Positions 10,300 to 36,583 of a stretch of 37,740 bases of DNA are shown piece after piece; position 1 is the stretch's first letter; each line of letters opens with the position of its first letter. A program made the translations under genes and the position numbers. This stretch comes from a virus (taxonomy: Duplodnaviria; Heunggongvirae; Uroviricota; Caudoviricetes): the IMG/VR virus record IMGVR_UViG_2778261277_000009, positions 1 to 37,740 of that record; one strand, given 5' to 3'. The notes below the pieces were generated by a model, which searched no databases, was not told the DNA's origin, and saw nothing but the letters and a program-made list of their open reading frames with translations.

Positions 10300-11484
10300 T
10301 CAAGCCTTAAGAGGCTTTGTGTATGTTCGTGTAATCCAACCAGTAATAAACTCATCCCCTGATTTAACCTGCACGTAAAGCCATTGACGATCTTTCTTAT
10401 CTAAAATAGCAACAATTGTGTTTTTGCCAATGCATTCAATCACTTCACTATTTAAAGAAGGACTGACATGTAATCTTACGTTATCACCAGTTATAAACCT
10501 AAAACCATTGAGATCTTCCCACTTAATTTCTGTGTTTTCTTTAATTAATTTTTGTTTTGATATTGGTGCATCCTCATATAGGGATACAGAATATGATTCT
10601 GTCTTGTGTATTTGCGATAAGATTTGTTCTTTTGCATAATCAGCAATAGCGCCAAGCACCACTTCTGTTAAAAGCCACATAATAATAAACTGAAGCGGGT
10701 GAGGGAGCGACTTAAATGAATCAATGAACGTCGAACTGGATTTATTTAATCCTTTGTCTTGAACATCACTTTCGTTGTGAGATGTTTCAATAGCACCTTC
10801 GACATAAGCCTGTGCAATTGATGAAAGACTTTGCTCCATTATTTGATGTAATGAAGCCTTTTGCGCTAGGGTATATTGTTTTAATGATTCTTTTATTTCA
10901 TTGTTTAAATCTATCTTATGACTTACATTTTGTCGCAATTCATTAAGTATTGCTTGCATGTTATTTAAACCAGCTTGCTTATTAAGCATCTCGAACTGGT
11001 TTCGTAACGGCATAGCAATTTCTGCCTGCTTCCTTAGCATTTGAATGTATTTATTTGCATCATGCGGGGGATAAACCTTGGCCTGTTTCTGTAGAATTTC
11101 AAGAAATTCACGATGCTTGCTATTTATTCTTCTCAAGCTCGTCATGTTCGCAAGCTGTTTTTTAACAGAATCACTAAGTAACGATTGCAAATTCAATCTT
11201 GCTATTTGTTCTTGAGCTAGCCGCCCTATTCTTAACTGTTCTTGCAAGTTTGCCATATGTTCTCTATACGATGGAATGATTGCGTTTTTTTGCAGTTCTG
11301 CCAACTGTCTAACCAAATTATTAGAAGCATATTCTGATTTTAATAAATCACTTGCCGATGTATATCCTGGCATTTTGATTTTACTTAAATTATCACGCCA
11401 GGTAATATTTGAATCTCTATTATAGAGATCGCTTACTGAGCCAAGTGCAAGTTTTTTAATATCCTTCACTTTATTCACCGTCAT
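10300..11484 (-). CDS. coiled-coil membrane protein with C-terminal SH3b-like domain (function unknown)
   Basis: 394-aa ORF in a low-GC island; long Q/L/K-rich heptad region, one hydrophobic helix (FIIMWLLTEVVLGAIADYA), C-terminal segment ending GDEFITGWITRTYTK that resembles bacterial SH3 domains. Confidence 0.5.
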   Translation of the reverse strand: MTVNKVKDIKKLALGSVSDLYNRDSNITWRDNLSKIKMPGYTSASDLLKSEYASNNLVRQLAELQKNAIIPSYREHMANLQEQLRIGRLAQEQIARLNLQSLLSDSVKKQLANMTSLRRINSKHREFLEILQKQAKVYPPHDANKYIQMLRKQAEIAMPLRNQFEMLNKQAGLNNMQAILNELRQNVSHKIDLNNEIKESLKQYTLAQKASLHQIMEQSLSSIAQAYVEGAIETSHNESDVQDKGLNKSSSTFIDSFKSLPHPLQFIIMWLLTEVVLGAIADYAKEQILSQIHKTESYSVSLYEDAPISKQKLIKENTEIKWEDLNGFRFITGDNVRLHVSPSLNSEVIECIGKNTIVAILDKKDRQWLYVQVKSGDEFITGWITRTYTKPLKA

Positions 11485-11977
11485 CTTGCTTTAAACATCC
11501 ATCATTTTTAGCTTCCTTGTAAATACTTGAAATTCCATCAAGAGAGAATGATGTAATTCGACGCGATCCGATATATACATCCATGTTTTTTTCTTTTGTG
11601 GCTGACGCTGACTTCCAAAAAGAATACCATTCCCTACGATTTGGAGCAGTGTTTTGCGTACCAATATTAAAGCTATCCGGACCAACAATTAAGGTAATTA
11701 CATCAGCTTTACGAGAAATTGTGTCGCGTGTAGAAAAATCAGCATTCTCTTTCCCTCCACTTACATACAAATTTCTTCCAGCTATATGATCTTCGGAACC
11801 TTCCCTTGCTCCAGCATCACAAGAAAAGTTAATTGTATAACCATCGTCATTGGTTGCAGAGATTTCTCTCCACCCTTGCTCACCTCCTACCGTCCAAACG
11901 GTAGAACCTGCCATTGCTGATAATGGCAGAAAAGAGGACATTAATAAAAAGCTATACAATGACTTATATAATTTCAT
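11471..11977 (-). CDS. secreted/periplasmic protein with signal peptide (function unknown)
   Basis: 168-aa ORF; N-terminus MKLYKSLYSFLLMSSFLPLSAMA is a classic signal peptide; AAGGA SD 8 nt upstream; low GC. Confidence 0.5.
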   Translation of the reverse strand: MKLYKSLYSFLLMSSFLPLSAMAGSTVWTVGGEQGWREISATNDDGYTINFSCDAGAREGSEDHIAGRNLYVSGGKENADFSTRDTISRKADVITLIVGPDSFNIGTQNTAPNRREWYSFWKSASATKEKNMDVYIGSRRITSFSLDGISSIYKEAKNDGCLKQDDGE

Positions 11978-12065
11978 ATTTTTATCCTTTTTGTTTTAGA
12001 TATTATAGGCATAGTCCATATTGTTAGATCCACTATGCCCAGAGAATTTAATATTATTCATTAAA

Positions 12066-12557
12066 TTATGGAGCTACACCCGGCCCCCTGGCTCGTTCTT
12101 CAAGCGTACCCTGCACGTTTTGATGGCGCATTCCTGGGGCATTTCTGATTGAGTCAATGCCATTTCTTCCAACATCTTCTTTATTAACGGCATTGCTCGC
12201 CACCAGCACACCCCAGCTAGGGATAGCAAAATCAGGAGCGGTTTCGCATGCCTTTACCATATAATCGAAAGTGCTTCGATTGATCTCATTTGCATCGGGG
12301 TTTAATAGGCGAGAATATTGGTATTTAGCATTTGCGTTGGTTGAGACTTTATACAGTTCCTGCTGCACCATCGCTTCAGAAAGTTTAAGGCGCTTCATAT
12401 CTGACAGTAACTTCTTGCGCATGGATTCGTCTTCACTGACAGCAAATCCGTAAACGTGCCCAAGGTATTTCGTATAATCGGTACAAATCTCCTTTACGCT
12501 TGATGCTGCATTAACAGTCCCAGCCATAAATAATAACGGTAGTAATAGTTTTCTCAT
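12066..12557 (-). CDS. secreted protein with Sit-like C-terminal motif (candidate superinfection-exclusion factor)
   Basis: Start chosen at the ATG with a GGTGAGG SD (MRKLLLPLLFMAGTVNA signal peptide); C-terminal IDSIRNAPGMRHQNVQGTLEERARG matches two motifs near the Sit C-terminus. Confidence 0.5.
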   Translation of the reverse strand: MRKLLLPLLFMAGTVNAASSVKEICTDYTKYLGHVYGFAVSEDESMRKKLLSDMKRLKLSEAMVQQELYKVSTNANAKYQYSRLLNPDANEINRSTFDYMVKACETAPDFAIPSWGVLVASNAVNKEDVGRNGIDSIRNAPGMRHQNVQGTLEERARGPGVAP

Positions 12558-16086: not shown

Positions 16087-16349
16087 TAGATTGCTCTAAT
16101 CTGGAGTCACCTGGCATTTTCAGTTTGAGGTCGGAGATGCAATCTGATTTTTACAGTTAGCGATCACTTTTTGCAGGGCATCGTTGAGACATATCCATAT
16201 ATAAAAACCCAAAGCCAGATCAAAACTTGTACTGATAAAAACACAGCTAACCATCACAACTTGTAACGTTTATAATGAGTAAAAGAGTGATACATTGCTA
16301 CTTTTACATATTTTTTGACTTAATTCATGGATAGTAATGGAGATGCATA

Positions 16350-17405
16350 ATGACTTATGCTGGCACACAAACAGCAGATAACGCCGGGGATACCATGAAA
16401 TCGTATGCTATTTGGAATAATAAAGGTGGCGTAGGAAAGACCTACTTATCTTTCGCTATGGCCTGTGAATACGCAAGGCAAAATCCAGAAAAGCGTATTA
16501 TTTTTGCAGATATGTGCCCGCAGGCTAACTTATCTGAAATATTGCTCGGCGGTAACGGTACTGGTGCTGCTAACCTCGCGAGCTTAATTCAACAACGAAA
16601 AACTGTCGGTGGGTACTTTGACAGAAGAACTCGCAGCCCCCACATGCTTACCGGTTCAGAAACAAGTTTCTTAATTCATGTCTCTGAAATTAACGGGCAT
16701 GTCCCTGACAATGTATTTTTGATTGCAGGCGACCCAAGCCTGGAAGTTCAGGCGCAAGTAATCAATCAGTTAAGCAGCGTAAACTTACCAGTTGACTCAT
16801 GGAAAAGCATCCACCTGTGGCTACGAGATTTGCTTGTTGCATGTGCACAACAACAAGGTATCGAAGAAACCATTTGCTTTATTGATTGCAACCCCAGTTT
16901 CTCTGCCTATACCGAACTATCACTGATAGCAGCAAATGCAATTATAATACCTTGCTCAAGTGATGGTTCTTCGGCTCGAGCAGTGGATAACCTAAGCCAG
17001 TTGGTTTATGGCGTTGGAGTACAAAACGATTATCGTTCTGTTAACTTTTACGATCGGTGTCAACAGTTTGGTCTAGCGGTTCCTGTCATTCATTCTCTAG
17101 TTTTTAATCGTTCGACAGAGTATGACAAACGAGCAAGTAAAGCGTTTTCGGCAATGTTCGACGAAATCAGGGATAGAGCTGAAAATCTGCGGACGAATAA
17201 ACCAACAGCGTTCCAAGGCGGAAATTTAAAAACGTTTACTGTGCCAGATAACCATTCCGTAGCTATAGTATCTTCCCATCTAGGAAGACCTCTATTTGAT
17301 ATAAAACCAGGCAGATATCAGATCCATGATACTGAGCCACAAATCAATAATGAACCATTAGAAAGATATGGTGCAGCAATCGAACGTCTTGTTCAGAGTT
17401 TATAG
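16350..17405 (+). CDS. orphan ParA/MinD-family ATPase (deviant Walker A), no partner ParB
   Basis: Walker A NNKGGVGKT, A' IFADMCPQ, Walker B CFIDCNPS; alternative start at 16395 (MKSYAIWNNKGGVGKT) with a GGGGA SD; lower GC than the core. Confidence 0.7.
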   Translation: MTYAGTQTADNAGDTMKSYAIWNNKGGVGKTYLSFAMACEYARQNPEKRIIFADMCPQANLSEILLGGNGTGAANLASLIQQRKTVGGYFDRRTRSPHMLTGSETSFLIHVSEINGHVPDNVFLIAGDPSLEVQAQVINQLSSVNLPVDSWKSIHLWLRDLLVACAQQQGIEETICFIDCNPSFSAYTELSLIAANAIIIPCSSDGSSARAVDNLSQLVYGVGVQNDYRSVNFYDRCQQFGLAVPVIHSLVFNRSTEYDKRASKAFSAMFDEIRDRAENLRTNKPTAFQGGNLKTFTVPDNHSVAIVSSHLGRPLFDIKPGRYQIHDTEPQINNEPLERYGAAIERLVQSL

Positions 17406-17428
17406 TGGCTTATCTCACTCATAATGGC

Positions 17429-17465
17429 TAAAAAAAGGCTGCAACAGAGGTTGCAGCCTTTTTTA
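17429..17465. terminator. bidirectional rho-independent terminator between convergent genes
   Basis: A-run, GGCTGCAAC-agag-GTTGCAGCC, T-run. Confidence 0.75.
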
Positions 17466-17475
17466 TAAAATTACA

Positions 17476-17763
17476 TTAACAGACTGGTAGCGATAGTAAA
17501 TTATTATTCCATCGATTGTCTGCATACGTTCTAATAAACTGCCTTCCACCATTACCAGGATTAACAACCCCAACTTCTACACGATTACCTGCATTATCTG
17601 TTACATAGAATGTATGGAGATTATTATCAATAGCATTAATTACCTGCTCAACAGTCCATTTCCCATTGCTAGTATTAAATTGAGGACTTCCCACATGAGT
17701 AATATGCTCATGGATTGATTGCGAGCCGGAGAGGGTAATGCAAGTAATGCGTACATCAGCCAT
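17476..17763 (-). CDS. small DUF3892-like protein
   Basis: Start chosen at the ATG with an AAGGAAG SD (MADVRITCITLSG...NNLLSLPVC, 95 aa); the N-terminal extension in the ORF track looks spurious. Confidence 0.5.
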   Translation of the reverse strand: MADVRITCITLSGSQSIHEHITHVGSPQFNTSNGKWTVEQVINAIDNNLHTFYVTDNAGNRVEVGVVNPGNGGRQFIRTYADNRWNNNLLSLPVC

Positions 17764-18051
17764 ATATACTTCCTTTATTCTATAGATTATAGGAATTGCG
17801 TTGTCCAAAAAACAAACAACACAATAACAATAAAGAAACATACACACAACAAAAACTAACGCTATTTATTGATAGATTTGCCTGATGAATGCTAGCTCTC
17901 TTTGCTGCCTAGCACTCAAACAAATAACAGAAGAAAGCCCCAGATAACATTACGCGTCCTGCAAGACGCTTAACATTAATCTGAGGCCATATCCATGCTT
18001 AGCATATCTAGATTAACCCTCTCCCCTTTTAAGGAGCAAGGAATTTTACTG

Positions 18052-18648
18052 CTATGCCGCCTTTCCAGTTATGGATTCAGCGACAAGAACAACCCCATGC
18101 TTACTTCGATCTGGGTGTTCACTCCATATCTCAGATTCAGGAATACTTACCCCGTCATAGCAAACACGTTCGCCGTCAAACGGGTAATACTGAGCGGCAT
18201 CGGTGTCGAGGATAAACACTTTTAGCTCGGAAGAGCGACGGGCGATGTGTTGCCAAAGAGCTTTTCCACCTTCGTATTGCTCATTATCACTAAGCAAAAC
18301 AACACCAGCTTTTGAGGCTACGGTTTCGTAAACAAAAGTAGCTAAACCGACATCACGGACGGTTCCATCAACCACGATACCTTCAATCTGGGCAACATCG
18401 CTATCCTCCCAGAACTTCCTTACCAGTACGCCTTCAAGCTGCGGGCGACGTTGAAGTTCAAGAGTAGCGACAACCTTATGGCGCATATCACCATCGATAA
18501 CAGAAGGCGCAGCCTCTATTACAGCTGCAAATGGGGTTTTGGAATCCCATATAACCTGGTAAAGCACACCCTGGATGGTAACTCCGTCCAGGATCGAAAA
18601 TCGACGAGCGACAGTACCCGGGGAGTACGACATTGGAATCACAGCCAT
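18052..18648 (-). CDS. hypothetical protein, 198 aa
   Basis: Start chosen at the second ATG (MAVIPMSYSPG) with an AAAGGGGGA SD; operator-like site 18701-18716 upstream. Confidence 0.5.
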   Translation of the reverse strand: MAVIPMSYSPGTVARRFSILDGVTIQGVLYQVIWDSKTPFAAVIEAAPSVIDGDMRHKVVATLELQRRPQLEGVLVRKFWEDSDVAQIEGIVVDGTVRDVGLATFVYETVASKAGVVLLSDNEQYEGGKALWQHIARRSSELKVFILDTDAAQYYPFDGERVCYDGVSIPESEIWSEHPDRSKHGVVLVAESITGKAA

Positions 18649-18776
18649 TTTAGAGTCCCCCTTTAACAGTACAGGCACAAACATCTACCTCAATAATTGT
18701 AGTTTATTAGAACATTAATAATCTAACATAAAACTCCAGACAATGTTATCGATGCATGTTTATATAAAATAGTTAT

Positions 18777-18798
18777 AAAAAAAGCTCCCGCAGGAGCT
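18777..18798 (-). terminator. rho-independent terminator ending the minus-strand late operon
   Basis: GCTCC-cgca-GGAGC hairpin followed on the minus strand by a 7-T run. Confidence 0.65.
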
Positions 18799-24274: not shown

Positions 24275-24362
24275 AAGGTGAAATCGTGGCGATTTCACCT
24301 TGAAATTTTAGAAGGATTTACTTTAAAAACAGTAATTTAATGGTGAAATTTGAATGGCGAAA
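24275..24362. other. parS: parS partition site (centromere)
   Basis: Box A heptamers (GTGAAAT/ATTTCAC) and box B hexamers (TCGCCA/TGGCGA) flanking an AT-rich IHF-like spacer, immediately downstream of parB. Confidence 0.8.
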
Positions 24363-24364
24363 GT

Positions 24365-25366
24365 TTAAGGCTTCGGCTTTTTATCGAGGCTCTTTCTAAG
24401 GATATGCCCAATCATCCTGTCGAGTTCTTCCTGTAACTCTTTTGAGAGTCGATTAAACTCATAAGAAAATGCACGGCCTTTCACGCGCTTCCTTGCAAAG
24501 CGATCCTTGTCCTCAAATTTCCATAATTCAGTAACTACGGACTTATCTTTAGAACCTTTATCCGTGAGTAGTGAGGCTTCCTTTGTTATCAAGCGCAGGA
24601 TTTTATTTTTAACTTCATCTTCGGCCATTTCTTCAATGGATAAGATGTCGTTTATTTCCGGGGATATGTTTTGAATAAGCTGATCAAACTCTAAATTCTT
24701 GTTCCCCATTTCGTCGCCAACAGCACAAAGCGTTTTGTAGTCCGAAAAGGTTAATTCCGACTGCACAGGGAAAAGGGCGACTAATTCTTCCGGAGCACTC
24801 GCTGCCTGGAGAGCACGCGTGACCTTCGCCTGAGACAGCCCTTCTTTGGCTGCAATATCCTTCTGACTCATCCCATCATTTTTCATTCGCATCAAACGCA
24901 GACCTATTTCTCGAATGCTGTGCTGCAATGCTGTCTGAACGTCTTTCGCTAAATTTTGCGCTTCCTGAACGCTGATCTCCTGATCCGTGACTAAAACCCG
25001 CAACCCTACGTTCTCTAAGATGGCAGAAGCTCGACGCCGGGAACCATCCAAAATTTCAATTTTCCCTGTAGCCCGTCTAACACCTATTGCAGGGTAAAAT
25101 TGCTGATGCTTAATAGTGCTTCGGATACTTTTTAATGATTTTGGCGTAAGAGATGCCTGGTCACGCCCGTTGTTATGCTGATCAACAAAGGTATCGCTTT
25201 CTACCTGGTTCGGAGGTATTACCTCTTCAATAAATGTGGCCTGGCGACCAGTTGATAACTTGAATACCTGCTCGACTCGATCGCCAGAGGCTGAAGAACT
25301 ATCAAATCCGCTTAATATTGAAGGATTAAGGGTTCGCCCAATTGTTGGTCTGTTTTTCTTTGACAT
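24365..25366 (-). CDS. parB: partition protein ParB
   Basis: 333-aa ORF, MSKKNRPTIGRTL N-terminus, directly downstream of parA and upstream of parS. Confidence 0.95.
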   Translation of the reverse strand: MSKKNRPTIGRTLNPSILSGFDSSSASGDRVEQVFKLSTGRQATFIEEVIPPNQVESDTFVDQHNNGRDQASLTPKSLKSIRSTIKHQQFYPAIGVRRATGKIEILDGSRRRASAILENVGLRVLVTDQEISVQEAQNLAKDVQTALQHSIREIGLRLMRMKNDGMSQKDIAAKEGLSQAKVTRALQAASAPEELVALFPVQSELTFSDYKTLCAVGDEMGNKNLEFDQLIQNISPEINDILSIEEMAEDEVKNKILRLITKEASLLTDKGSKDKSVVTELWKFEDKDRFARKRVKGRAFSYEFNRLSKELQEELDRMIGHILRKSLDKKPKP

Positions 25367-25382
25367 GGGGGTTTCTTACTCC

Positions 25383-26579
25383 TCAGTTAGATCTGATAAA
25401 TTCAATACGGTCAAAAACTGCTTTAGCAAAATCTTCCGCGGCAATTCGCGCGTTCTTCAATGCATCAGCACTACCAACATACGTTGCCGGGTTAGCTGAA
25501 ATAACAGTGTCAAAAGACTCGCCGCAACGTTCAAAACCGTCAAGGCGAGGGAGGACGACATCGAGCATATCCCCACCGAACACTTCTTTAGCCAGGCTAT
25601 GGCAATACTTATGATCTGCCTTGTTACTCAACTTGGACATAAAACCAATGTTAGTCGCAAGCTGGCACTCGCAGCCTTCATCCGAAATGAGTTTCACCAA
25701 CTCAGGAAGGCGGGCAACGTATTTAAGCGATGAGTGGAAATCGACAGTTGCTGGCGGCAGAGGTGTAAACAGTATATTGGCCGAGGCCAAAGCATTTTTC
25801 AGGAAGGCGTCAAGGTGAGGACCACTATCAACGAGGATAAAGTCATAATCGCTCTTCAGCTTATCAATCACATTTTCTTTCAGGACAGCATGGATGTTCT
25901 GACCCGGTAGATGCTCATTGCACAGCTCTCTCCAATCGGATGCAATAAAGGCATCGTCAATCGACGCAGGCATAACGTCAACCCCAGGTACAACAGAAGG
26001 AACAATAAACTCCTCTAACAGCTCTTCACGGCTTACATTCTGCAACATAGCCTGTGCAGATGTTGCGTTTACGATACCAATAGAGTGTTTATGGCTTAAA
26101 AACATCGTTGCTGAAGATTGCGGATCAAGGTCAATAACCAGAATCCTTAAATCTTCCATCAGAAGATGAGGGTGGGCACGCATTGCATGCGCCAGAGAAA
26201 CCGTCGATACAGTTTTTGACACACCGCCTTTAAGATTGGAGATGAAAATCACATACGCTTCGCTGTAGCGATCCCGGTATTTTGGCACTCCGCGATGTTC
26301 ATATATGTCAATGATGTTCTGAATTGACATCGCATATTTCATTGAAGAGCCAGCAGGACGTTTATCGAAAACATAACCCTTTTCTTCCATTTCACTTACG
26401 GCATAGTCAACGTTCGCTCGAGTCAGTAGAGGCAATTTTGCCAGTGCCGCTTTCGCATAGACCTGGTAAAACTCGTTCGCGTGTAGCTCATCCTTTTGCA
26501 ACTGTACTTGTTCAGTCAGAACATTGAGCATTCTGTTTGCTCTTTGAGCAACCTTGTGAAGCTGGCTGGAATCACTCAT
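25383..26579 (-). CDS. parA: partition ATPase ParA (type Ia, with N-terminal DNA-binding extension)
   Basis: 398-aa ORF; Walker A NLKGGVSKT about 100 aa from the N-terminus. Confidence 0.95.
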   Translation of the reverse strand: MSDSSQLHKVAQRANRMLNVLTEQVQLQKDELHANEFYQVYAKAALAKLPLLTRANVDYAVSEMEEKGYVFDKRPAGSSMKYAMSIQNIIDIYEHRGVPKYRDRYSEAYVIFISNLKGGVSKTVSTVSLAHAMRAHPHLLMEDLRILVIDLDPQSSATMFLSHKHSIGIVNATSAQAMLQNVSREELLEEFIVPSVVPGVDVMPASIDDAFIASDWRELCNEHLPGQNIHAVLKENVIDKLKSDYDFILVDSGPHLDAFLKNALASANILFTPLPPATVDFHSSLKYVARLPELVKLISDEGCECQLATNIGFMSKLSNKADHKYCHSLAKEVFGGDMLDVVLPRLDGFERCGESFDTVISANPATYVGSADALKNARIAAEDFAKAVFDRIEFIRSN

Positions 26580-26842
26580 CGAAAGTCATCCTTTATGCTG
26601 TATTTTTGAATTTAATTAAAAATGCTGCATAAAATAATAATGTATGCGTAGATGCTTGTACATAGCATTCCCTGCATGTTTACTCCTTTGCCAAGTGTGT
26701 CACAACATGCTTTGGCATCCTCCACGCATAAAGGACGCGGATTTCTTCTATGTTCAGGTTGTAGCCTGAATCATTTTGGTGATTTCCTGCTTCAACGGGC
26801 AGCCCGGCTTCACTCTCTATCAACTGGTGAGAACGGCTTGCC

Positions 26843-27138
26843 CGGCAGCTTCGATGTGTGCTGGAGGGAGAATAAAAGTCTAAGATGTGCGATAGAGGGA
26901 AGTCGCATTGAATTATGTGCTGTGGAGGGATCGCTGGTATCAAATATGTGTGCTGGAGGGAAAGACAGAGAATTACATGTGCACTGGAGGGAAAAACGGA
27001 TGGACAGATGTGTGCTGGAGGGAAAGTCTGAGCAAACTGCGGGGCGTCCCCCTCCAGCGCACATCAAAAACGGGAAATTGGACAAGCCTTCCCGGCAGCA
27101 CACATTTTTTGAATGCAGCTGCCCTCCAGCACACACTT
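26843..27138. repeat. incA copy-control iteron array (9 RepA-binding 19-bp repeats, 6 in one orientation and 3 inverted)
   Basis: Repeats of type GATGTGTGCTGGAGGGAAA at 26843, 26884, 26914, 26945, 26976, 27007 and inverted copies at 27049, 27091, 27121. Confidence 0.85.
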
Positions 27139-27997
27139 ATTCGGGGAGTTTCAGCTTTGGATTGCGAGAATGGACGATTACAAAACTTTCCCGGCCTTTC
27201 TTCTCAATTGAACAGTCGAGATAGCCGATTGTTTTAAGCTGTTCTATCGCTTTCTTAATGATACGGTTTTGCTCGCCAACAGCTGACTGCAAAGCCAGGC
27301 GCTCACGGATTCGCGCGAACGATAGCGGCAACGGGTTCTGCGGAAGGCTTTCGATGAAAGTGTAAATGGCTTGTGCAGCTTCTTTCTTCGGAAGGGCACG
27401 CAAGGCGTGGTGTTGCAACAGAACGCGATAATCAAGCTGGAACAGCTCCCACAGCTTCGAATCAGCCTCCAGCTCTATCAGATCAAGGTCAGCATCAAAA
27501 CGCCCGACCTTCAGCAGACCAGTCTGATAGCCGCCTTTAGCATCTTTTCCGCGCTTAAAAGCGATACCCTTGTTACGCAAGCGTCCAAGTGATTCATGAA
27601 TGGTTAAACGCAGTTTCGCATCCAGACGTTTTGAGGGGAAACCACAGGCTTTAGCGAATTCCTGAAACGATAACTGGATGGTGTTTGAGGACAAGCCGTA
27701 TTTGCTGAACGCGTAGATGACACCGATCCACGTTTTGAAATCAGTATCCATATCGAGTCGAGGACCGGTGATTTTAATATCATCGTAACCCTCGGCTTTA
27801 GCTATCTCCAGCTGGGAAAACGCTTTGGTGGCATCAATCTCTTTACTTTCTCCTTTGCTCTTTGATGGCTTCGGAACGAATACCCCCAAGCGCATCAACG
27901 CTACAGGCTGGACAGTGTTGTTTGAATTAACTGTTAGTTCTTTTGCCTTACTTTCAATGTCTGCGTAAAGAATATCGGAGATAAATGATTGATTCAT
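27137..27997 (-). CDS. repA: plasmid replication initiator RepA
   Basis: 286-aa ORF flanked by iteron arrays on both sides; MNQSFISDILYADIESKAKEL N-terminus. Confidence 0.95.
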   Translation of the reverse strand: MNQSFISDILYADIESKAKELTVNSNNTVQPVALMRLGVFVPKPSKSKGESKEIDATKAFSQLEIAKAEGYDDIKITGPRLDMDTDFKTWIGVIYAFSKYGLSSNTIQLSFQEFAKACGFPSKRLDAKLRLTIHESLGRLRNKGIAFKRGKDAKGGYQTGLLKVGRFDADLDLIELEADSKLWELFQLDYRVLLQHHALRALPKKEAAQAIYTFIESLPQNPLPLSFARIRERLALQSAVGEQNRIIKKAIEQLKTIGYLDCSIEKKGRESFVIVHSRNPKLKLPE

Positions 27998-28274: not shown

Positions 28275-28302
28275 GTGAAAAACCGGCCAACATAGCCGGT
28301 TG
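28274..28302 (-). terminator. rho-independent terminator after the upfA-like gene
   Basis: AACCGGC-caacata-GCCGGTT hairpin followed on the minus strand by TTTTTCAC. Confidence 0.55.
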
Positions 28303-28314
28303 GAAGGAAGGGTA

Positions 28315-28707
28315 TTATTCTACGCTTTCGATAAGAAGACCATGTTCATAGCATTTAAGCTCATCGCCTTCATACAGGAACTGGTATCCAATACCACCAT
28401 ATTCAGGCACATTAGGGAATAACTCATCACTTACCGAAGAACAAATCACACCAATGCAGCGATCAACGCCTTCTCGTTCTTCAGTGCTGAAAAAATCCTC
28501 TTCGGTAAGAACATGAGTGCATTGCTCATCAGCATAGGTCGGAAATACATGCTCGATGCAATCCGGGTGTTTTAAACCAAGCTGATTGGCAAGCTCGAAA
28601 GCATGACGGTATTGTTCAGATCCTGGCTTGCCAACAGTGATTTGCTCAATTTTGTAGATTGAAGTCGCTTTGTTGATAGTTTGCTTTACTGTTACTTTAT
28701 CAGACAT
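28315..28707 (-). CDS. hypothetical protein (UpfA position)
   Basis: 130-aa ORF, acidic, Cys-containing. Confidence 0.5.
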   Translation of the reverse strand: MSDKVTVKQTINKATSIYKIEQITVGKPGSEQYRHAFELANQLGLKHPDCIEHVFPTYADEQCTHVLTEEDFFSTEEREGVDRCIGVICSSVSDELFPNVPEYGGIGYQFLYEGDELKCYEHGLLIESVE

Positions 28708-28718
28708 AAAAATCCCTT

Positions 28719-29051
28719 TTAGTTACCGCTGATAGCGCGGTTGTAATCATTAACGTTGCGATTCTTCCTGTTAATCCCCATCAGCATCGTTTCTGTATCA
28801 AGGATATACGCTGGCAGATCATCAAAATATTCACTGCTAAACTCTGGCATCCTGCACATAAACGCACTTTTGGGGGCAGGGTGGTTAACCTTTGTCGGCG
28901 TCGGCGTTAAATTCGCTGATCGACTCCCGGAGCAACCGCTGAGTGTCAGCAGGAATACGCTGGCGAACATTACCCGCCGCAACCAGTTGTTTCTGAACTT
29001 CAGCTTTTCGTTCCATTTGCCTGTCAGCATACTTGGCTTGTTCTGATTCAT
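28719..29051 (-). CDS. outer-membrane lipoprotein, o-spanin-like (Rz1-like; Mlp position)
   Basis: Lipobox LTLSGC, Pro-rich mature part with a second Cys; starts inside the upstream gene in a different frame and extends 166 nt past its stop; AGGAAG SD before the ATG at 29051. Confidence 0.5.
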   Translation of the reverse strand: MNQNKPSMLTGKWNEKLKFRNNWLRRVMFASVFLLTLSGCSGSRSANLTPTPTKVNHPAPKSAFMCRMPEFSSEYFDDLPAYILDTETMLMGINRKNRNVNDYNRAISGN

Positions 29052-29307
29052 TTTTCACTTCCTGGCTGTGAAAATGTTGCTCTGCTTTGTTCATCGTCTC
29101 AATGGTCTGGTTAAGATCCTTTATTGACTTATCACGTTCCTTAACAGCCTGATCAAGACTGCCAATTTTCTCGATGGCTTGCTTTAGCTGATGACGTTCC
29201 CATACAAACCCAGCACCAACAAGTGCGCAAATCAGAACAAGAACACCAGTAGCAGCAAGTTTCTCCTTCAAAGACAAAGCTGTTTTTAACGTAGAAAAGA
29301 ATGACAT
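28885..29307 (-). CDS. type II inner-membrane coiled-coil protein, i-spanin-like (Rz-like; PpfA position)
   Basis: Start chosen at the ATG with an AGGAGG SD (MSFFSTLKTALSLKEKLAATGVLVLICALVGAGF); N-terminal TM helix followed by a charged coiled-coil periplasmic domain. Confidence 0.5.
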   Translation of the reverse strand: MSFFSTLKTALSLKEKLAATGVLVLICALVGAGFVWERHQLKQAIEKIGSLDQAVKERDKSIKDLNQTIETMNKAEQHFHSQEVKNESEQAKYADRQMERKAEVQKQLVAAGNVRQRIPADTQRLLRESISEFNADADKG

Positions 29308-29346
29308 GTCTTCCTCCTGAAGAAAAATTATCAATGAAGTCCTTTG

Positions 29347-30135
29347 TTACTGTGCCGCTTTGTTTAATTCATCAAGAACAGAATCAGGAACCAAAGCGGC
29401 AACTGCGCTGGCTGTGCTGGCCTTATTTGCTGATGCTTCCGCAAGCGCGGTACCGATAGCATGGTTATAAGCAGTTATGGCTACGTTGGCGCTTTCATTC
29501 GCTCGTTCATACTGCTGTTGTAACGCAGTTGTGGGCGCTGTTGTCTGGTTGAAAACAACCCCAAACTGTTCAGTTGCTACTTTCAGAGATTCAATTTGCT
29601 CTTCTGTTAGTGTTGGTGGGGGAGTGGCAGTGCCGCCGCCTGAACCAGAGCCTGACGAGCTTACTGAGCCAGTGTTAAGGGTCTGGTTAATCTCCCCCAT
29701 AGCAGCGACTAAACTTGATGTATTAAGCGCGTTAACAGCGTCCTCAAGCGATTTAGTAATATTCACATCACCAATGGCAATAGAGATCGGCAGTTCTGAA
29801 ACTTCTCGCTCATTAGCACGGCAGTAAACATCCCAACCAATATCGAGTTGAAGCAGCATTGACAGATCTGCATAACCAGCCAACAGGTCCGCGTGCTTAG
29901 TTGCCAGTTCTCCAATGTTCGTTAAGCCGGTTGTAGTTGTTCTGATCGTTGAAACATAACTGGTAATAGTGTCGGGATAGACAATTGTATCCAGAATTAA
30001 TCCGGTCAATTCTTCTGCAAGCAGTTTTGCTGTGTTAGCACTGTTTCGTGCCGATGTTATGGCACCAGGTGTTTTCATCCCACCAGCGGCGGCCAATTTT
30101 TTATATGCGGATAACTGGTAGTCTTTTTCCAGCAT
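29347..30135 (-). CDS. hypothetical protein (UpfB position)
   Basis: Start at the ATG with an AGGAGA SD (MLEKDYQLSAYKK); Ser/Thr/Gly-rich C-terminal half. Confidence 0.5.
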   Translation of the reverse strand: MLEKDYQLSAYKKLAAAGGMKTPGAITSARNSANTAKLLAEELTGLILDTIVYPDTITSYVSTIRTTTTGLTNIGELATKHADLLAGYADLSMLLQLDIGWDVYCRANEREVSELPISIAIGDVNITKSLEDAVNALNTSSLVAAMGEINQTLNTGSVSSSGSGSGGGTATPPPTLTEEQIESLKVATEQFGVVFNQTTAPTTALQQQYERANESANVAITAYNHAIGTALAEASANKASTASAVAALVPDSVLDELNKAAQ

Positions 30136-30143
30136 GATATCTC

Positions 30144-30428
30144 CTAACTTACCTGAACCAGGCCGTCTCCGGACGCTACGGTAGATCCGCATGAAACAGG
30201 GTCACCAACGCATACGATCCCTTTACCATTGACGGTAAACCATGCCCTGGTTGATATAGCTTGCCCACCGTGCGTACTGTTTCCATCGGTATGCTGTGCA
30301 TATTGCTTACCATCAACTAACACTTCGACTCCGTTGACTTTAAGTAGTGGTTCACTCTCTACAGGAGGCCTGGATGGGAATCCTCCGTGCCCCGAACAAA
30401 TGCTGTCTTTTGTTGCAATACTTGCCAC
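30144..30428 (-). CDS. small Gly/Cys-rich protein with PAAR-like repeats (tentative), GTG start
   Basis: 94 aa with CSGHGG, STHGGQ and DPVSCGST motifs, reminiscent of PAAR spike-tip proteins; the first codon is GTG with GGTGA upstream. Confidence 0.4.
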   Translation of the reverse strand: MASIATKDSICSGHGGFPSRPPVESEPLLKVNGVEVLVDGKQYAQHTDGNSTHGGQAISTRAWFTVNGKGIVCVGDPVSCGSTVASGDGLVQVS

Positions 30429-30509
30429 GTCATCACCAATTATTTGCTCTGATTTTCGTTATTTTAACTCAGGTTGTTTGTGGTCTACATGGCGTTTACC
30501 TATTATAAA

Positions 30510-30526
30510 ATTGCTCTAATAAATAT
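30510..30526 (+). promoter_or_regulatory. C1 operator in front of the uhr-hrdC-dmt operon
   Basis: ATTGCTCTAATAAATAT, 16/17 to consensus, about 70 nt upstream of the first ATG that has an SD. Confidence 0.7.
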
Positions 30527-35188: not shown

Positions 35189-35275
35189 GGAGAGTAGGGA
35201 GCATGGTGCTCAAACGGTCTTGAAAACCGTCCCATTGCGCAAGCGATGATGGTTCGATTCCATTACTCTCCGCCA
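35189..35275 (+). tRNA. tRNA-like element, class II (long variable arm), anticodon-arm identical in type to tRNA-Ser(UGA); atypical D-arm
   Basis: Perfect 7-bp acceptor GGAGAGT/ACTCTCC plus G and CCA; anticodon stem-loop ACGGT-CTTGAAA-ACCGT; T-arm GATGG-TTCGATT-CCATT; 17-nt variable region; D-arm only 4 bp with a 5-nt loop. Confidence 0.4.
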
Positions 35276-35538
35276 GTGCAACGTTAAGAGTATTTGGCTA
35301 ATTAAGCGAATGCCGGAAGCAGAACCGGATCACCAAATGCGTACAGGCGTCATCGCCGCCCAGCCAGCCAAGTGCTCTTACCATTGCGGTGAATGCGGCT
35401 ATGCGCACGCGGAACAGTTAAAACAATCCTCCTTAGTGGTTAAGTCAAACATCCCGGCGTTAATTGTTAACTGGTTAACGTCACCTGGAGGCACCAGGCA
35501 CCGCAGCTTTTTTATTCGTTAAATAATGGAGTGAGAGG

Positions 35539-35775
35539 ATGCAGAACAATCCGAACAAATGTCGAACGCTATGGGTGCGGTTATATATTTATGCCGTCCT
35601 CTGTTTGATTGTGTCACTGGTTCTGTATGTTTGGCTTTTGCCAAATATGATCTCATCTAACAGCACAATACTTGTATTGTTGGGAGTCCTTTTCGCGCTC
35701 ATTTACCCGGCTTTCGCAGTAGTCTTTTTTCGTGAAAAAACCAGGAAATTAATTAATGAAAAAAACGTTGATTAG
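35539..35775 (+). CDS. upl: small two-helix membrane protein upstream of plp (Upl-like)
   Basis: 78 aa with two hydrophobic helices; GGAG SD; overlaps the plp start. Confidence 0.5.
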   Translation: MQNNPNKCRTLWVRLYIYAVLCLIVSLVLYVWLLPNMISSNSTILVLLGVLFALIYPAFAVVFFREKTRKLINEKNVD

Positions 35776-36583
35776 TGCAGCGATTATTTTGGGTTCTTTA
35801 TGTCTGACCGGATGCGATCGGGTAGAGCCAGGTAACGTAGGGATCAAAGTAAATAAGCTGGGGGATGATAAAGGTATCGGTGAAGTAGTTGGTGTTGGTC
35901 GCTACTGGACAGGCTTGAATACTGAAGTTTATATCTTCCCGACCTTTAAGCAAATGAAGACATACGATGAGCCGTTCAGCTTCCAGATGAGCGACGGAAC
36001 AACCATTGGTTACCACATCGGCGTAGCCTACAAGGTTGATCCAGCAAAAGTCACAACGGTATTTCAGACCTATCGCAAAGGTGTAGATGATATTACTGAT
36101 ACCGATCTACGCCAGAAGGTTGCAGATGCTCTGAACCGGTTAGCCAGCAAAATGACCACCGACAAATTTATCGACGGTGGCAAATCTGAATTGCTTGATG
36201 CAGCCCTTAAAGACATTCAGGAAGAAATGACGCCAATCGGCATTCAGGTGATGAGCCTCTCTTATGTAGGTAAGCCAGAATATCCGCCAACAGTTATTGA
36301 CAGTATTAACGCCAAAGTTACGGCAAACCAAAAAACCCTGCAACGCGAGCAAGAGGTCAAACAACGTGAAGCAGAGGCCAACATGCTGCGCGCGGAAGCT
36401 GCCGGACAGGCTGATGCTATTCGCACAAAAGCCCAGGCCGAAGCTGATGCCATTCGTTTACGTGGTGAAGCTCTGCGCCAGAACCCCGGTGTTATGGAGT
36501 TGGAAGCGATCAACAAATGGAACGGTACATTACCGCAGTATATGACCAGTAATACCGCTGTTCCGTTTGTTCCGGTGAAATAA
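35756..36583 (+). CDS. plp: lipoprotein Plp (SPFH/band-7-like fold candidate)
   Basis: Signal peptide with lipobox LCLTGC; C-terminal Ala/Glu/Gln/Arg-rich coiled coil. Confidence 0.65.
   Translation: MKKTLISAAIILGSLCLTGCDRVEPGNVGIKVNKLGDDKGIGEVVGVGRYWTGLNTEVYIFPTFKQMKTYDEPFSFQMSDGTTIGYHIGVAYKVDPAKVTTVFQTYRKGVDDITDTDLRQKVADALNRLASKMTTDKFIDGGKSELLDAALKDIQEEMTPIGIQVMSLSYVGKPEYPPTVIDSINAKVTANQKTLQREQEVKQREAEANMLRAEAAGQADAIRTKAQAEADAIRLRGEALRQNPGVMELEAINKWNGTLPQYMTSNTAVPFVPVK

What the first reader, a model, noticed from the sequence alone, without database searches (positions are those of the whole stretch)
28719..29334. Overlapping two-component spanin-like gene pair located beside the plasmid origin
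A type II membrane coiled-coil protein (i-spanin-like, 28885-29307) contains, in another frame, the start of a Pro-rich lipoprotein gene (o-spanin-like, lipobox LTLSGC) that extends 166 nt past its stop. This is the classic Rz/Rz1 overlapped architecture. Here it is not next to an endolysin or holin but between repA/oriR and the immunity-controlled operon, implying separately regulated lysis functions.
Basis: partly seen in the sequence, partly recalled or inferred. Interest (0 to 1): 0.4.

Follow-up and report, generated by a model that had tools for sequence, protein, structure and literature searches.

The report
Phage P1 spanin genes ppfA/mlp
The finding is the known ppfA/mlp gene pair of a P1-like phage-plasmid, already listed in spanin catalogues as the overlapping two-part "spanin" thought to fuse the inner and outer membranes at the last step of host lysis, so it is real but not new.

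Summary
On the minus strand, a 140-aa type II membrane, helical protein (28885-29307) overlaps by 167 nt, in the +1 frame, a 110-aa lipoprotein precursor (28719-29051, lipobox LSGC). The lipoprotein gene runs 166 nt past the first gene's stop.

The window is a P1-like phage-plasmid, 96-99% identical to P1 here. The two genes are P1 ppfA and mlp. They were named Rz/Rz1 equivalents in 2007 and are listed in the 2018 spanin database as an "overlapped" i-spanin/o-spanin pair. RefSeq and PHROGs annotate them as Rz-like spanins.

They are distant relatives of P2 LysB/LysC, not of lambda Rz/Rz1. In P1-like plasmids whose PpfA is only about 60% identical, the 589-nt geometry, the lipobox and a second cysteine are all kept. 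The non-overlapping parts are under purifying selection (dN/dS 0.09-0.27).

The pair does sit apart from lyz and lydAB, in the upfC-upfB-ppfA-mlp-upfA unit beside oriR. Published P1vir RNA-seq nevertheless shows late-gene kinetics like lyz, so it is a separate unit but not a separate timing class.

A small extra is a candidate late promoter just upstream of ppfA that the P1 record does not annotate. Spanin function in P1 is still untested by experiment.

The parts
28885..29307 (-). ppfA, the i-spanin (140 aa). N-terminal transmembrane segment at residues 17-35 (nt 29203-29259), then a long periplasmic helix, the linker AGNVRQRIP, and a short C-terminal helix.
   Evidence: ORF and translation. 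Two residues differ from P1 PpfA, A35V and M62K. phrog_89 Rz-like spanin at 7e-25, the same PHROG as P2 LysB. AlphaFold2 helices 13-110 and 120-137. Listed as i-spanin in SpaninDB.
29313..29318 (-). Shine-Dalgarno AGGAGG of ppfA.
   Evidence: Read from the sequence. The same site is listed in SpaninDB and is invariant in diverged relatives.
28719..29051 (-). mlp, the o-spanin precursor (110 aa). 39-residue signal peptide, lipobox LSGC (nt 28932-28943), lipidated Cys40, Ser at +2, 71-aa mature protein with a conserved second Cys66 (nt 28854-28856).
   Evidence: 100% identical to P1 Mlp. phrog_30284 at 6.5e-79 and phrog_456 (the LysC family) at 2.7e-5. BLASTP to P2 LysC gives 37% identity over 68 aa, E = 1e-7. 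SpaninDB lists it as o-spanin.
29058..29063 (-). Shine-Dalgarno AGGAAG of mlp, lying inside ppfA codons.
   Evidence: Sequence and SpaninDB.
28885..29051 (-). 167-nt two-frame overlap. It encodes the PpfA C-terminus (residues 86-140) and the Mlp signal peptide, lipobox and first mature residues.
   Evidence: Frame offset +1. Nucleotide identity to diverged relatives is 75-78% here against 61% in the ppfA-only part. The PpfA frame is the constrained one (dN/dS 0.13-0.24), while the Mlp frame gives an apparent ratio above 1.
29327..29345 (-). Candidate Lpa-type late promoter: AAAGGACTT (-22 element, 7 of 9 matches to the AAGTGACTT consensus), 4 nt, then GATAAT (-10).
   Evidence: Third-best match in the window (12 of 15 positions), after two sites scoring 14 and 13. 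It has the same 9+4+6 geometry as the annotated LPpro, LPlyz and LP23. Relatives L006, L008 and L092 carry the perfect AAGTGACTT at the homologous position; a locus-wide count, run for L006 and L008, found it once per locus. It is not annotated in AF234172. This is an inference, not a demonstrated promoter.
29347..30135 (-). upfB, upstream gene of the same transcription unit, function unknown. It probably starts at ATG 30135 (262 aa) rather than 30192.
   Evidence: phrog_1559, unknown function.
30144..30428 (-). upfC, first gene of the unit. PAAR-motif protein resembling T4 gp5.4.
Evidence: Pfam PAAR_motif at 8.5e-6 and phrog_281 at 2e-30.
28315..28707 (-). upfA, last gene of the unit, function unknown.
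28281..28301 (-). Terminator-like hairpin (9-bp stem followed by a T run) just after upfA and before oriR.
   Evidence: This is a pattern match only.
30510..30526 (+). C1 operator (Op68/Odmt) of the divergent uhr-hrdC-dmt operon. It marks the upstream edge of the unit.
   Evidence: One mismatch to the consensus. Annotated in P1.

Best explanation
The pair is the two-component spanin of a P1-like phage-plasmid: ppfA is the i-spanin and mlp is the o-spanin, in the overlapped class.

Proposed mechanism, inferred from the lambda and general spanin model rather than shown for P1:
1. PpfA inserts into the inner membrane through its N-terminal anchor, N-terminus in and C-terminus out. It projects a mostly helical rod of about 100 residues into the periplasm.
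2. Mlp is exported, lipid-modified at Cys40 and cleaved by signal peptidase II. Because position +2 is Ser, the Lol system delivers it to the inner leaflet of the outer membrane.
3. The periplasmic ends of the two proteins bind, forming bridges that thread through the peptidoglycan mesh. Covalent dimers probably form through Mlp Cys66, because PpfA has no periplasmic cysteine.
4. When holin LydA triggers and the SAR-endolysin Lyz degrades the wall, the freed complexes collapse and fuse the inner and outer membranes, removing the last barrier to release.

The genes belong to a late-expressed unit, upfC-upfB-ppfA-mlp-upfA, which is physically unlinked to the other P1 lysis genes. The pair may have its own Lpa-dependent promoter directly upstream of ppfA.
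For: Identity:
- The region is 96-99% identical to P1 over ppfA/mlp, and Mlp is identical to P1 Mlp.
- SpaninDB lists this pair as overlapped i-/o-spanin, and Bednarek 2022 cites Summer 2007 for it.

Features:
- Transmembrane segment 17-35, lipobox LSGC, Ser at +2, a second Cys.
- Helix-linker-helix model.

Homology:
- PpfA matches phrog_89 at 7e-25, which is also P2 LysB's PHROG (5.8e-61).
- Mlp and P2 LysC hit each other's PHROGs and align at E = 1e-7.

Selection:
- Geometry, lipobox and second Cys are conserved at about 60% PpfA identity.
- dN/dS is 0.09-0.13 for mlp-only and 0.20-0.27 for ppfA-only.
- 78 of 80 close relatives are intact.

Timing:
- In the P1vir RNA-seq, the five genes of the unit have log fold change 4.1-5.6 at 10 min and 10.5-11.2 at 30 min, a mean rise of 6.16.
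- Late genes including lyz and lydAB rise by a mean of 6.93, early genes by 3.17.
Against: - No experiment has shown spanin activity for P1 ppfA/mlp; this is stated.
- CRISPRi knock-downs of ppfA (plating efficiency 1.3 and 1.2) and mlp (0.24 and 0.19) score non-essential for plaque formation. Spanin defects are classically conditional, and the same study lists lambda R and Rz among the genes dispensable for plaque formation.
- PpfA is far below NCBI's LysB cut-off (19.4 against 92.75 bits), has no Pfam hit at or near a family gathering threshold, and gives non-significant pairwise and profile comparisons with LysB and Rz.
- The mature Mlp (71 aa, 8.5% Pro) is longer and less proline-rich than lambda Rz1.
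- The genes are not in a lysis cassette.
Confidence: 0.86

Rival explanations
1. The pair is a vestigial or redundant spanin. The genes descend from LysB/LysC-type spanins but contribute little to P1 lysis, either because the outer membrane fails anyway or because another factor does the job.
For: - CRISPRi scores both genes as non-essential.
- Public protein databases hold several 193- and 195-aa PpfA::Mlp fusion ORFs. They arise from single-base deletions at four different points of the overlap, and each would disable at least one subunit.
- L009 carries a visibly decayed copy.
- Function has never been verified.
Against: - Both non-overlapping parts are under strong purifying selection across relatives about 40% diverged, with no indel in 589 nt.
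- 78 of 80 IMG/VR relatives are intact.
- The genes reach high late expression.
- The fusion ORFs come mostly from automatic assemblies and may be homopolymer errors.
- Spanin phenotypes are conditional, so plaque assays are weak evidence.
Confidence: 0.08
2. The pair encodes envelope proteins with a non-lysis role tied to the plasmid-prophage state, for example exclusion or envelope modification. On this view the position beside oriR/repA is meaningful and the spanin look is only superficial.
For: - The genes sit next to the plasmid replication and partition genes.
- The P1 record predicts sigma-70 promoters for ppfA, P1ppfA and P2ppfA.
- No Pfam family matches.
- The gene slot after mlp varies between relatives: upfA, a gp49-like gene, or both.
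Against: - Expression follows late kinetics, unlike the neighbouring repA, parAB and dmt genes.
- The pair is homologous to P2 LysB/LysC, which lie in the P2 lysis cassette.
- The combination of type II anchor, helical rod, outer-membrane lipoprotein and +1 overlap is the defining spanin signature.
Confidence: 0.04
3. The mlp reading frame is a chance open frame inside and beyond ppfA, not a gene.
For: - 53% of synonymous recodings of ppfA leave the +1 frame open over the overlap.
- Several automatic annotations omit mlp or call only its last 46 codons.
Against: - dN/dS is 0.09-0.13 in the mlp-only part.
- The lipobox, second Cys and start region with its ribosome-binding site are kept in relatives with about 60% PpfA identity.
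- Mlp aligns with P2 LysC at E = 1e-7.
Confidence: 0.01

Closest known systems
Phage P1 ppfA / mlp (gp064 / gp063), the P1 family in SpaninDB (Summer et al. 2007; Kongari et al. 2018)
   Same: It is the same locus. Mlp is 100% identical and PpfA differs at two residues. Start codons, ribosome-binding sites, the 167-nt overlap and the flanking genes upfB, upfA, oriR and repA are the same.
   Different: Only allelic differences. The window is a P1-like variant with several mosaic regions elsewhere.
Phage P2 lysB / lysC, the prototype overlapped two-component spanin
   Same: Same overlapped +1 architecture. PpfA falls in LysB's PHROG (phrog_89). Mlp and LysC cross-match each other's PHROGs and share 37% identity over 68 aa, including the lipobox region and the Cys-x-Met-Pro motif.
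   Different: P2's pair sits in a lysis cassette directly after the holin Y, the endolysin K and lysA, whereas P1's is unlinked to its lysis genes. PpfA against LysB is not significant pairwise and is far below the TIGR03495 cut-off. LysB has periplasmic cysteines and PpfA has none.
Phage lambda Rz / Rz1
   Same: Same predicted topology and presumed mechanism: an inner-membrane type II helical protein plus an outer-membrane lipoprotein read in the +1 frame. A weak shared 'VAAG-R-R' linker motif is not significant.
   Different: Lambda Rz1 is fully embedded in Rz, not overlapped. The proteins belong to different PHROGs (13 and 3198). Lambda Rz has two periplasmic Cys, and mature Rz1 is 40 aa. 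The lambda genes lie in the S-R-Rz cassette.

Membership tests
Two-component spanin (i-spanin + o-spanin), criteria of Summer 2007 / Kongari 2018 | i-spanin: a single N-terminal transmembrane domain with type II topology | tested here: met
   Residues 17-35, Kyte-Doolittle mean 2.48, are the only hydrophobic stretch. Lysines K8, K14 and K16 lie on the N-terminal side. SpaninDB lists the same segment.
Two-component spanin (i-spanin + o-spanin), criteria of Summer 2007 / Kongari 2018 | i-spanin periplasmic domain is mostly alpha-helical, as two helices joined by a linker | tested here: met
   The AlphaFold2 model gives H13-110, a linker at 111-119 and H120-137. Confidence is moderate only (pLDDT 67, pTM 0.26). 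37% of the periplasmic residues are charged.
Two-component spanin (i-spanin + o-spanin), criteria of Summer 2007 / Kongari 2018 | o-spanin: lipoprotein signal with a lipobox and no inner-membrane retention residue at +2 | tested here: met
   LSGC at residues 37-40, Ser at +2, hydrophobic core VMFASVFLLTL. The lipobox is kept in 80 of 80 close relatives and 6 of 6 diverged ones.
Two-component spanin (i-spanin + o-spanin), criteria of Summer 2007 / Kongari 2018 | The o-spanin gene is adjacent to, overlapping or embedded in the i-spanin gene | tested here: met
   mlp starts at codon 86 of ppfA in the +1 frame and extends 166 nt beyond its stop, which is the 'overlapped' class.
Two-component spanin (i-spanin + o-spanin), criteria of Summer 2007 / Kongari 2018 | At least one periplasmic cysteine available for intermolecular disulfide bonds (present in 507 of 528 systems) | tested here: met
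   Mlp Cys66 is conserved in all relatives examined. PpfA has none in the periplasm.
Two-component spanin (i-spanin + o-spanin), criteria of Summer 2007 / Kongari 2018 | Location in or next to the lysis cassette (typical, not obligatory) | tested here: not met
   The flanking genes are upfB/upfC and upfA/oriR/repA. By synteny the window runs from the S tail-fibre gene to ban and holds none of lyz or lydA-E. This unlinked position is already published for P1.
Two-component spanin (i-spanin + o-spanin), criteria of Summer 2007 / Kongari 2018 | Function: outer-membrane disruption, shown by a Mg2+-dependent lysis defect or by complementing lambda Rz/Rz1 | not testable with these tools
   The literature states it is unverified for P1. 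CRISPRi plaque assays score the genes non-essential, which does not inform about a conditional phenotype.
P2 LysB/LysC sequence family (phrog_89 / phrog_456; NCBIfam TIGR03495) | Significant match to the family profiles | tested here: inconclusive
   PHROG level is met: PpfA to phrog_89 at 7e-25, Mlp to phrog_456 at 2.7e-5, LysC to phrog_30284 at 5.4e-4, and Mlp against LysC by BLASTP at 1e-7. The NCBI equivalog level is not met: TIGR03495 scores 19.4 bits against a cut-off of 92.75. The pair is therefore a distant relative, not an equivalog.
Lambda Rz/Rz1 sequence family (phrog_13 / phrog_3198), embedded class | Sequence match to the Rz and Rz1 profiles, and the o-spanin gene fully embedded | tested here: not met
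   There is no hit to phrog_13 or phrog_3198. hhalign gives probability 1.8%. The gene extends beyond the ppfA stop.
P1 Lpa-dependent late transcription unit | A 9-bp inverted repeat (AAGTGACTT-like) at -22, then 4 nt and a -10 hexamer; late kinetics | tested here: inconclusive
   Late kinetics are met in published RNA-seq. The motif upstream of ppfA matches 7 of 9 in the window and all close relatives, and 9 of 9 in three diverged relatives. No convincing motif lies upstream of upfC. Lpa dependence has not been tested.

The most novel reading that the evidence does not exclude
The spanin pair of P1-like phage-plasmids is driven by its own late promoter, not annotated in the P1 GenBank record AF234172. 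The element is A-A-R-T/G-G-A-C-Y-T, 4 nt, then GANAAT, placed between the upfB stop and the ppfA ribosome-binding site. It matches the consensus perfectly in Cronobacter- and Klebsiella-type relatives but is degenerate (7 of 9) in P1 itself. If so, spanin supply would be an independently tunable late module. Together with the never-tested function and the plaque-assay dispensability, this would leave open that P1 needs its spanin only conditionally.
Probability: 0.4. Interest if true: 0.25.

Novelty: already known. Interest (0 to 1): 0.1.

Why it matters
For genome annotation it matters a little. mlp is often missed or truncated by automatic gene callers, two recent papers swap the i- and o-spanin labels, and P1 remains a classic phage whose predicted spanin has never been tested. 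P1 shows that lysis genes can be scattered over unlinked operons and still be expressed together late. Nothing here changes the current picture of spanins or of P1.

Tried and rejected
- Pfam gave no significant family for either protein; there were only coiled-coil noise hits and a sub-threshold lipoprotein-site hit.
- Pairwise BLASTP of PpfA against P2 LysB and profile comparisons of the PpfA family against LysB or lambda Rz were not significant.
- The solved-structure sequence search found nothing relevant.
- NCBIfam gave only a far-sub-threshold LysB hit.
- A canonical late-promoter motif search found no site near the operon at 2 mismatches or fewer. A looser scoring found the 7-of-9 site upstream of ppfA.
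- A perfect TATAAT next to the C1 operator, pointing at upfC, looked like a C1-controlled promoter. It lacks a -35 element, is not conserved in the P1 reference (TGCAAT there), and conflicts with the late kinetics, so it was set aside.
- An ORF-chance simulation showed the open overlap frame is not improbable by itself, so it was not used as evidence.
- The viral-contig scan returned only close relatives, 95-100% identical. Diverged loci had to be fetched through individual proteins.
- Neither the P1 genome paper (Lobocka 2004) nor Summer 2007 is held in the library. What is said about them rests on citing papers and on the GenBank notes.

Full report
**What is there.** Five co-oriented genes lie on the minus strand of the window, upstream of oriR and repA (27137-27997):
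- upfC, 30144-30428
- upfB, 29347-30135/30192
- a 140-aa ORF, 28885-29307
- a 110-aa ORF, 28719-29051
- upfA, 28315-28707

The 110-aa ORF starts 256 nt into the 140-aa ORF, in the +1 frame. The two share 167 nt, and the 110-aa ORF continues 166 nt beyond the first stop. Both starts have good ribosome-binding sites: AGGAGG at 29318-29313 and AGGAAG at 29063-29058.

**Identity.** The region is 96-99% identical to phage P1, P7 and other punaviruses. In the P1 record the two genes are ppfA ("possible periplasmic function") and mlp ([quoted passage not shown]).
- The window's Mlp is identical to P1 Mlp. PpfA differs by A35V and M62K.
- The window as a whole is a mosaic P1-like phage-plasmid running from the S tail-fibre gene to ban.

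**Already known.**
- The spanin database of Kongari et al. 2018 (Table S1) lists P1 NC_005856 as class "ovl". gp064 (PpfA) is the i-spanin and gp063 (Mlp) the o-spanin, with the same start codons and ribosome-binding sites and "0" periplasmic cysteines in the i-spanin.
- Bednarek et al. 2022 state that the P1 spanin genes ppfA and mlp partially overlap and lie in an operon unlinked to the other lysis genes. They say the genes were identified from predicted features (citing Summer et al. 2007) and have not been verified experimentally. That paper swaps the i/o labels, as does a 2025 preprint table.
- RefSeq records of P7, RCS47 and SJ46 call mlp an "Rz-like spanin".
- PHROGs place PpfA in phrog_89 (7e-25) and Mlp in phrog_30284 (6.5e-79), both labelled Rz-like spanin.

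**Protein features.**
- PpfA has one hydrophobic segment, residues 17-35, followed by 104 highly charged residues with no cysteine.
- An AlphaFold2 model built on 19 family members predicts helix 13-110, a nine-residue linker and helix 120-137. Confidence is moderate (pLDDT 67).
- Mlp has a long basic n-region, the hydrophobic core VMFASVFLLTL, lipobox LSGC with Cys40, and Ser at +2, which implies outer-membrane sorting.
- The mature Mlp is 71 aa with 6 prolines and a second cysteine, Cys66.

**Homology.** PpfA shares its PHROG with P2 LysB (5.8e-61 for LysB). Mlp and P2 LysC hit each other's PHROGs and align at 37% identity over 68 residues, E = 1e-7. P2 lysB/lysC has the same overlapped layout but sits in the P2 lysis cassette.

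Lambda Rz and Rz1 belong to other PHROGs and are of the embedded class. "Classic Rz/Rz1 overlapped architecture" should therefore read "P2 lysB/lysC-type overlapped architecture".

At stricter levels the relationship is weak:
- TIGR03495 (LysB) scores 19.4 bits against a cut-off of 92.75.
- Pfam gives nothing.
- Pairwise and profile comparisons with LysB and Rz are not significant.

**Is the overlapped ORF real?** ORF statistics alone do not settle it. 53% of synonymous recodings of ppfA keep the +1 frame open across the overlap, and 2.3% also show a lipobox. Conservation does settle it.
- Among 80 close relatives in IMG/VR, 78 keep both ORFs at full length. There are 23 distinct Mlp variants, and all retain LSGC and Cys66.
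- In six P1-like plasmids, from Cronobacter and Salmonella (by the NCBI names of their PpfA proteins), a Klebsiella aerogenes-type PpfA from an ENA assembly, and unnamed sequencing-run assemblies, PpfA is only 58-63% identical. The ppfA-start to mlp-stop span is still exactly 589 nt with no indel. The +1 ORF is kept with lipobox LSAC, LNGC or LNAC and with the second cysteine in the motif AFMCRMPE.
- dN/dS against these relatives is 0.09-0.13 for the mlp-only part and 0.20-0.27 for the ppfA-only part.
- Within the overlap the PpfA frame is the constrained one (0.13-0.24). The Mlp frame, which there encodes the signal peptide, shows an apparent ratio above 1. This is expected when only general signal-peptide properties are selected.

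**Context and regulation.** The pair is not next to any holin or endolysin. P1's lyz-lydD-lydE and lydA-lydB lie elsewhere, outside this window by synteny.
- Upstream of upfC lies the C1 operator Op68 of the divergent uhr-hrdC-dmt operon, at 30510-30526.
- Downstream of upfA there is a terminator-like hairpin at 28281-28301, then oriR.

Published P1vir RNA-seq (PMC8201110, Table S1) qualifies this:

| Gene set | Log fold change at 10 min | At 30 min | Mean rise |
|---|---|---|---|
| upfC, upfB, ppfA, mlp, upfA | 4.1-5.6 | 10.5-11.2 | 6.16 |
| 23 late structural and lysis genes, incl. lyz, lydA, lydB | mean 4.30 | - | 6.93 |
| 14 early genes | mean 8.61 | - | 3.17 |
| Neighbours uhr, hrdC, dmt | 8.6-9.4 | 11-12 | - |

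The spanin unit is thus separately transcribed but belongs to the same late temporal class as the other lysis genes.

**Candidate promoter (inference).** P1 late promoters carry a 9-bp inverted repeat that binds Lpa. Three annotated examples have the layout 9 nt + 4 nt + a -10 hexamer: LPpro AAGTGACTA, LPlyz AAGTGATTT and LP23 AAGTGACTT.
- No site at 2 mismatches or fewer lies near the operon.
- A scored scan finds AAAGGACTT-CATT-GATAAT at 29345-29327. This is between the upfB stop and the ppfA ribosome-binding site, and it is the third-best site in the window.
- At the homologous position, three diverged relatives (L006, L008, L092) carry the perfect AAGTGACTT followed by N4 and GAGAAT. A count across whole loci was run for L006 and L008, and each holds exactly one copy of the 9-mer.
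- Three others carry A(A/T)ATGACCT, N4, GAAAAT, within an otherwise diverged spacer.
- The P1 record annotates only predicted sigma-70 promoters there.

This suggests a dedicated late promoter for ppfA-mlp-upfA, but it is not shown. It also does not explain the late kinetics of upfC and upfB. Their upstream region holds only a conserved TAAAAT with a weak (5-6 of 9) repeat-like element.

**Function: what is shown and what is inferred.**
- Shown: gene structure, topology signals, homology to the LysB/LysC-type spanin family, purifying selection, and late expression (the last from published data).
- Inferred from the lambda-based model: lipidation and Lol sorting of Mlp, a PpfA-Mlp periplasm-spanning complex, disulfide-linked Mlp dimers through Cys66, and inner-outer membrane fusion after Lyz degrades the wall.
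- Not shown for P1: any lysis phenotype. CRISPRi knock-downs of ppfA and mlp plate at 1.3/1.2 and 0.24/0.19 and score non-essential. This is weak evidence either way, because spanin defects are conditional and the same study lists lambda R and Rz among the genes dispensable for plaque formation.

**Verdict.** The modest residual points are the candidate late promoter, the annotation errors around mlp, and the fact that the P1 spanin remains experimentally untested.

Noticed in passing
window 29327-29345 (-); L006 3964-3982, L008 3964-3982, L092 2964-2982: A candidate Lpa-type late promoter lies directly upstream of ppfA. It matches the AAGTGACTT consensus at 7 of 9 positions in P1-type sequences and perfectly in three diverged relatives. 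The P1 GenBank record annotates only sigma-70 predictions there.
   Followed up: partly
proteins P0002, P0031, P0046, P0052, P0071 (relatives of window 28719-29307): Public databases hold 193- and 195-aa PpfA::Mlp fusion ORFs. They arise from single-base deletions at four different points of the 167-nt overlap, one of them in the A5 run just before the mlp ATG. They could be real spanin-inactivating alleles or homopolymer sequencing errors.
   Followed up: partly
L002 2342-2482 (MH422554); L004 (OP279344); window 28719-29051: mlp is often mis-annotated. One record calls only its last 46 codons 'Rz1', which leaves out the lipobox, and another omits both mlp and upfC. [quoted passage not shown]
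   Followed up: yes
window 30135 vs 30192 (-): upfB probably starts at the ATG at 30135 (MLEKDYQ..., 262 aa), as in all diverged relatives and in OP279344. The 281-aa reading in the P1 record would overlap upfC.
   Followed up: partly
window 30144-30428 (-): UpfC, the first gene of the spanin-containing unit, is a PAAR-motif protein resembling T4 gp5.4, the tail-spike tip. The unit therefore mixes a likely virion protein with lysis genes.
   Followed up: no
window 30502-30526: In this window a perfect TATAAT on the minus strand lies 2 nt from the C1 operator Op68 and points at upfC. There is no -35 element, and the P1 reference has TGCAAT at that place.
   Followed up: partly
window 35189-36583 (+): The P1 plp/upl/tci region is replaced here. 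The replacement holds an extra tRNA-Ser (35189-35275), a 78-aa membrane protein (35539-35775) and an overlapping 275-aa lipoprotein with lipobox LTGC (35756-36583). In related records the matched stretch carries labels such as 'putative SPFH domain protein', 'putative serine protease' and 'lipoprotein'; which gene each label belongs to was not checked.
   Followed up: no
window 10198-12418, 16100-18778, 24309-26853: Three stretches of 2-2.7 kb do not align with P1 isolate OP279344. One covers the parA/parB region, which suggests a different partition allele. The window is a mosaic P1-like plasmid.
   Followed up: no
L009 3943-4330: An E. coli contig carries a decayed copy of the locus. The 5' part of ppfA is missing and the C-terminal half of mlp is frameshifted, next to a Rep3-type replication gene.
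   Followed up: no
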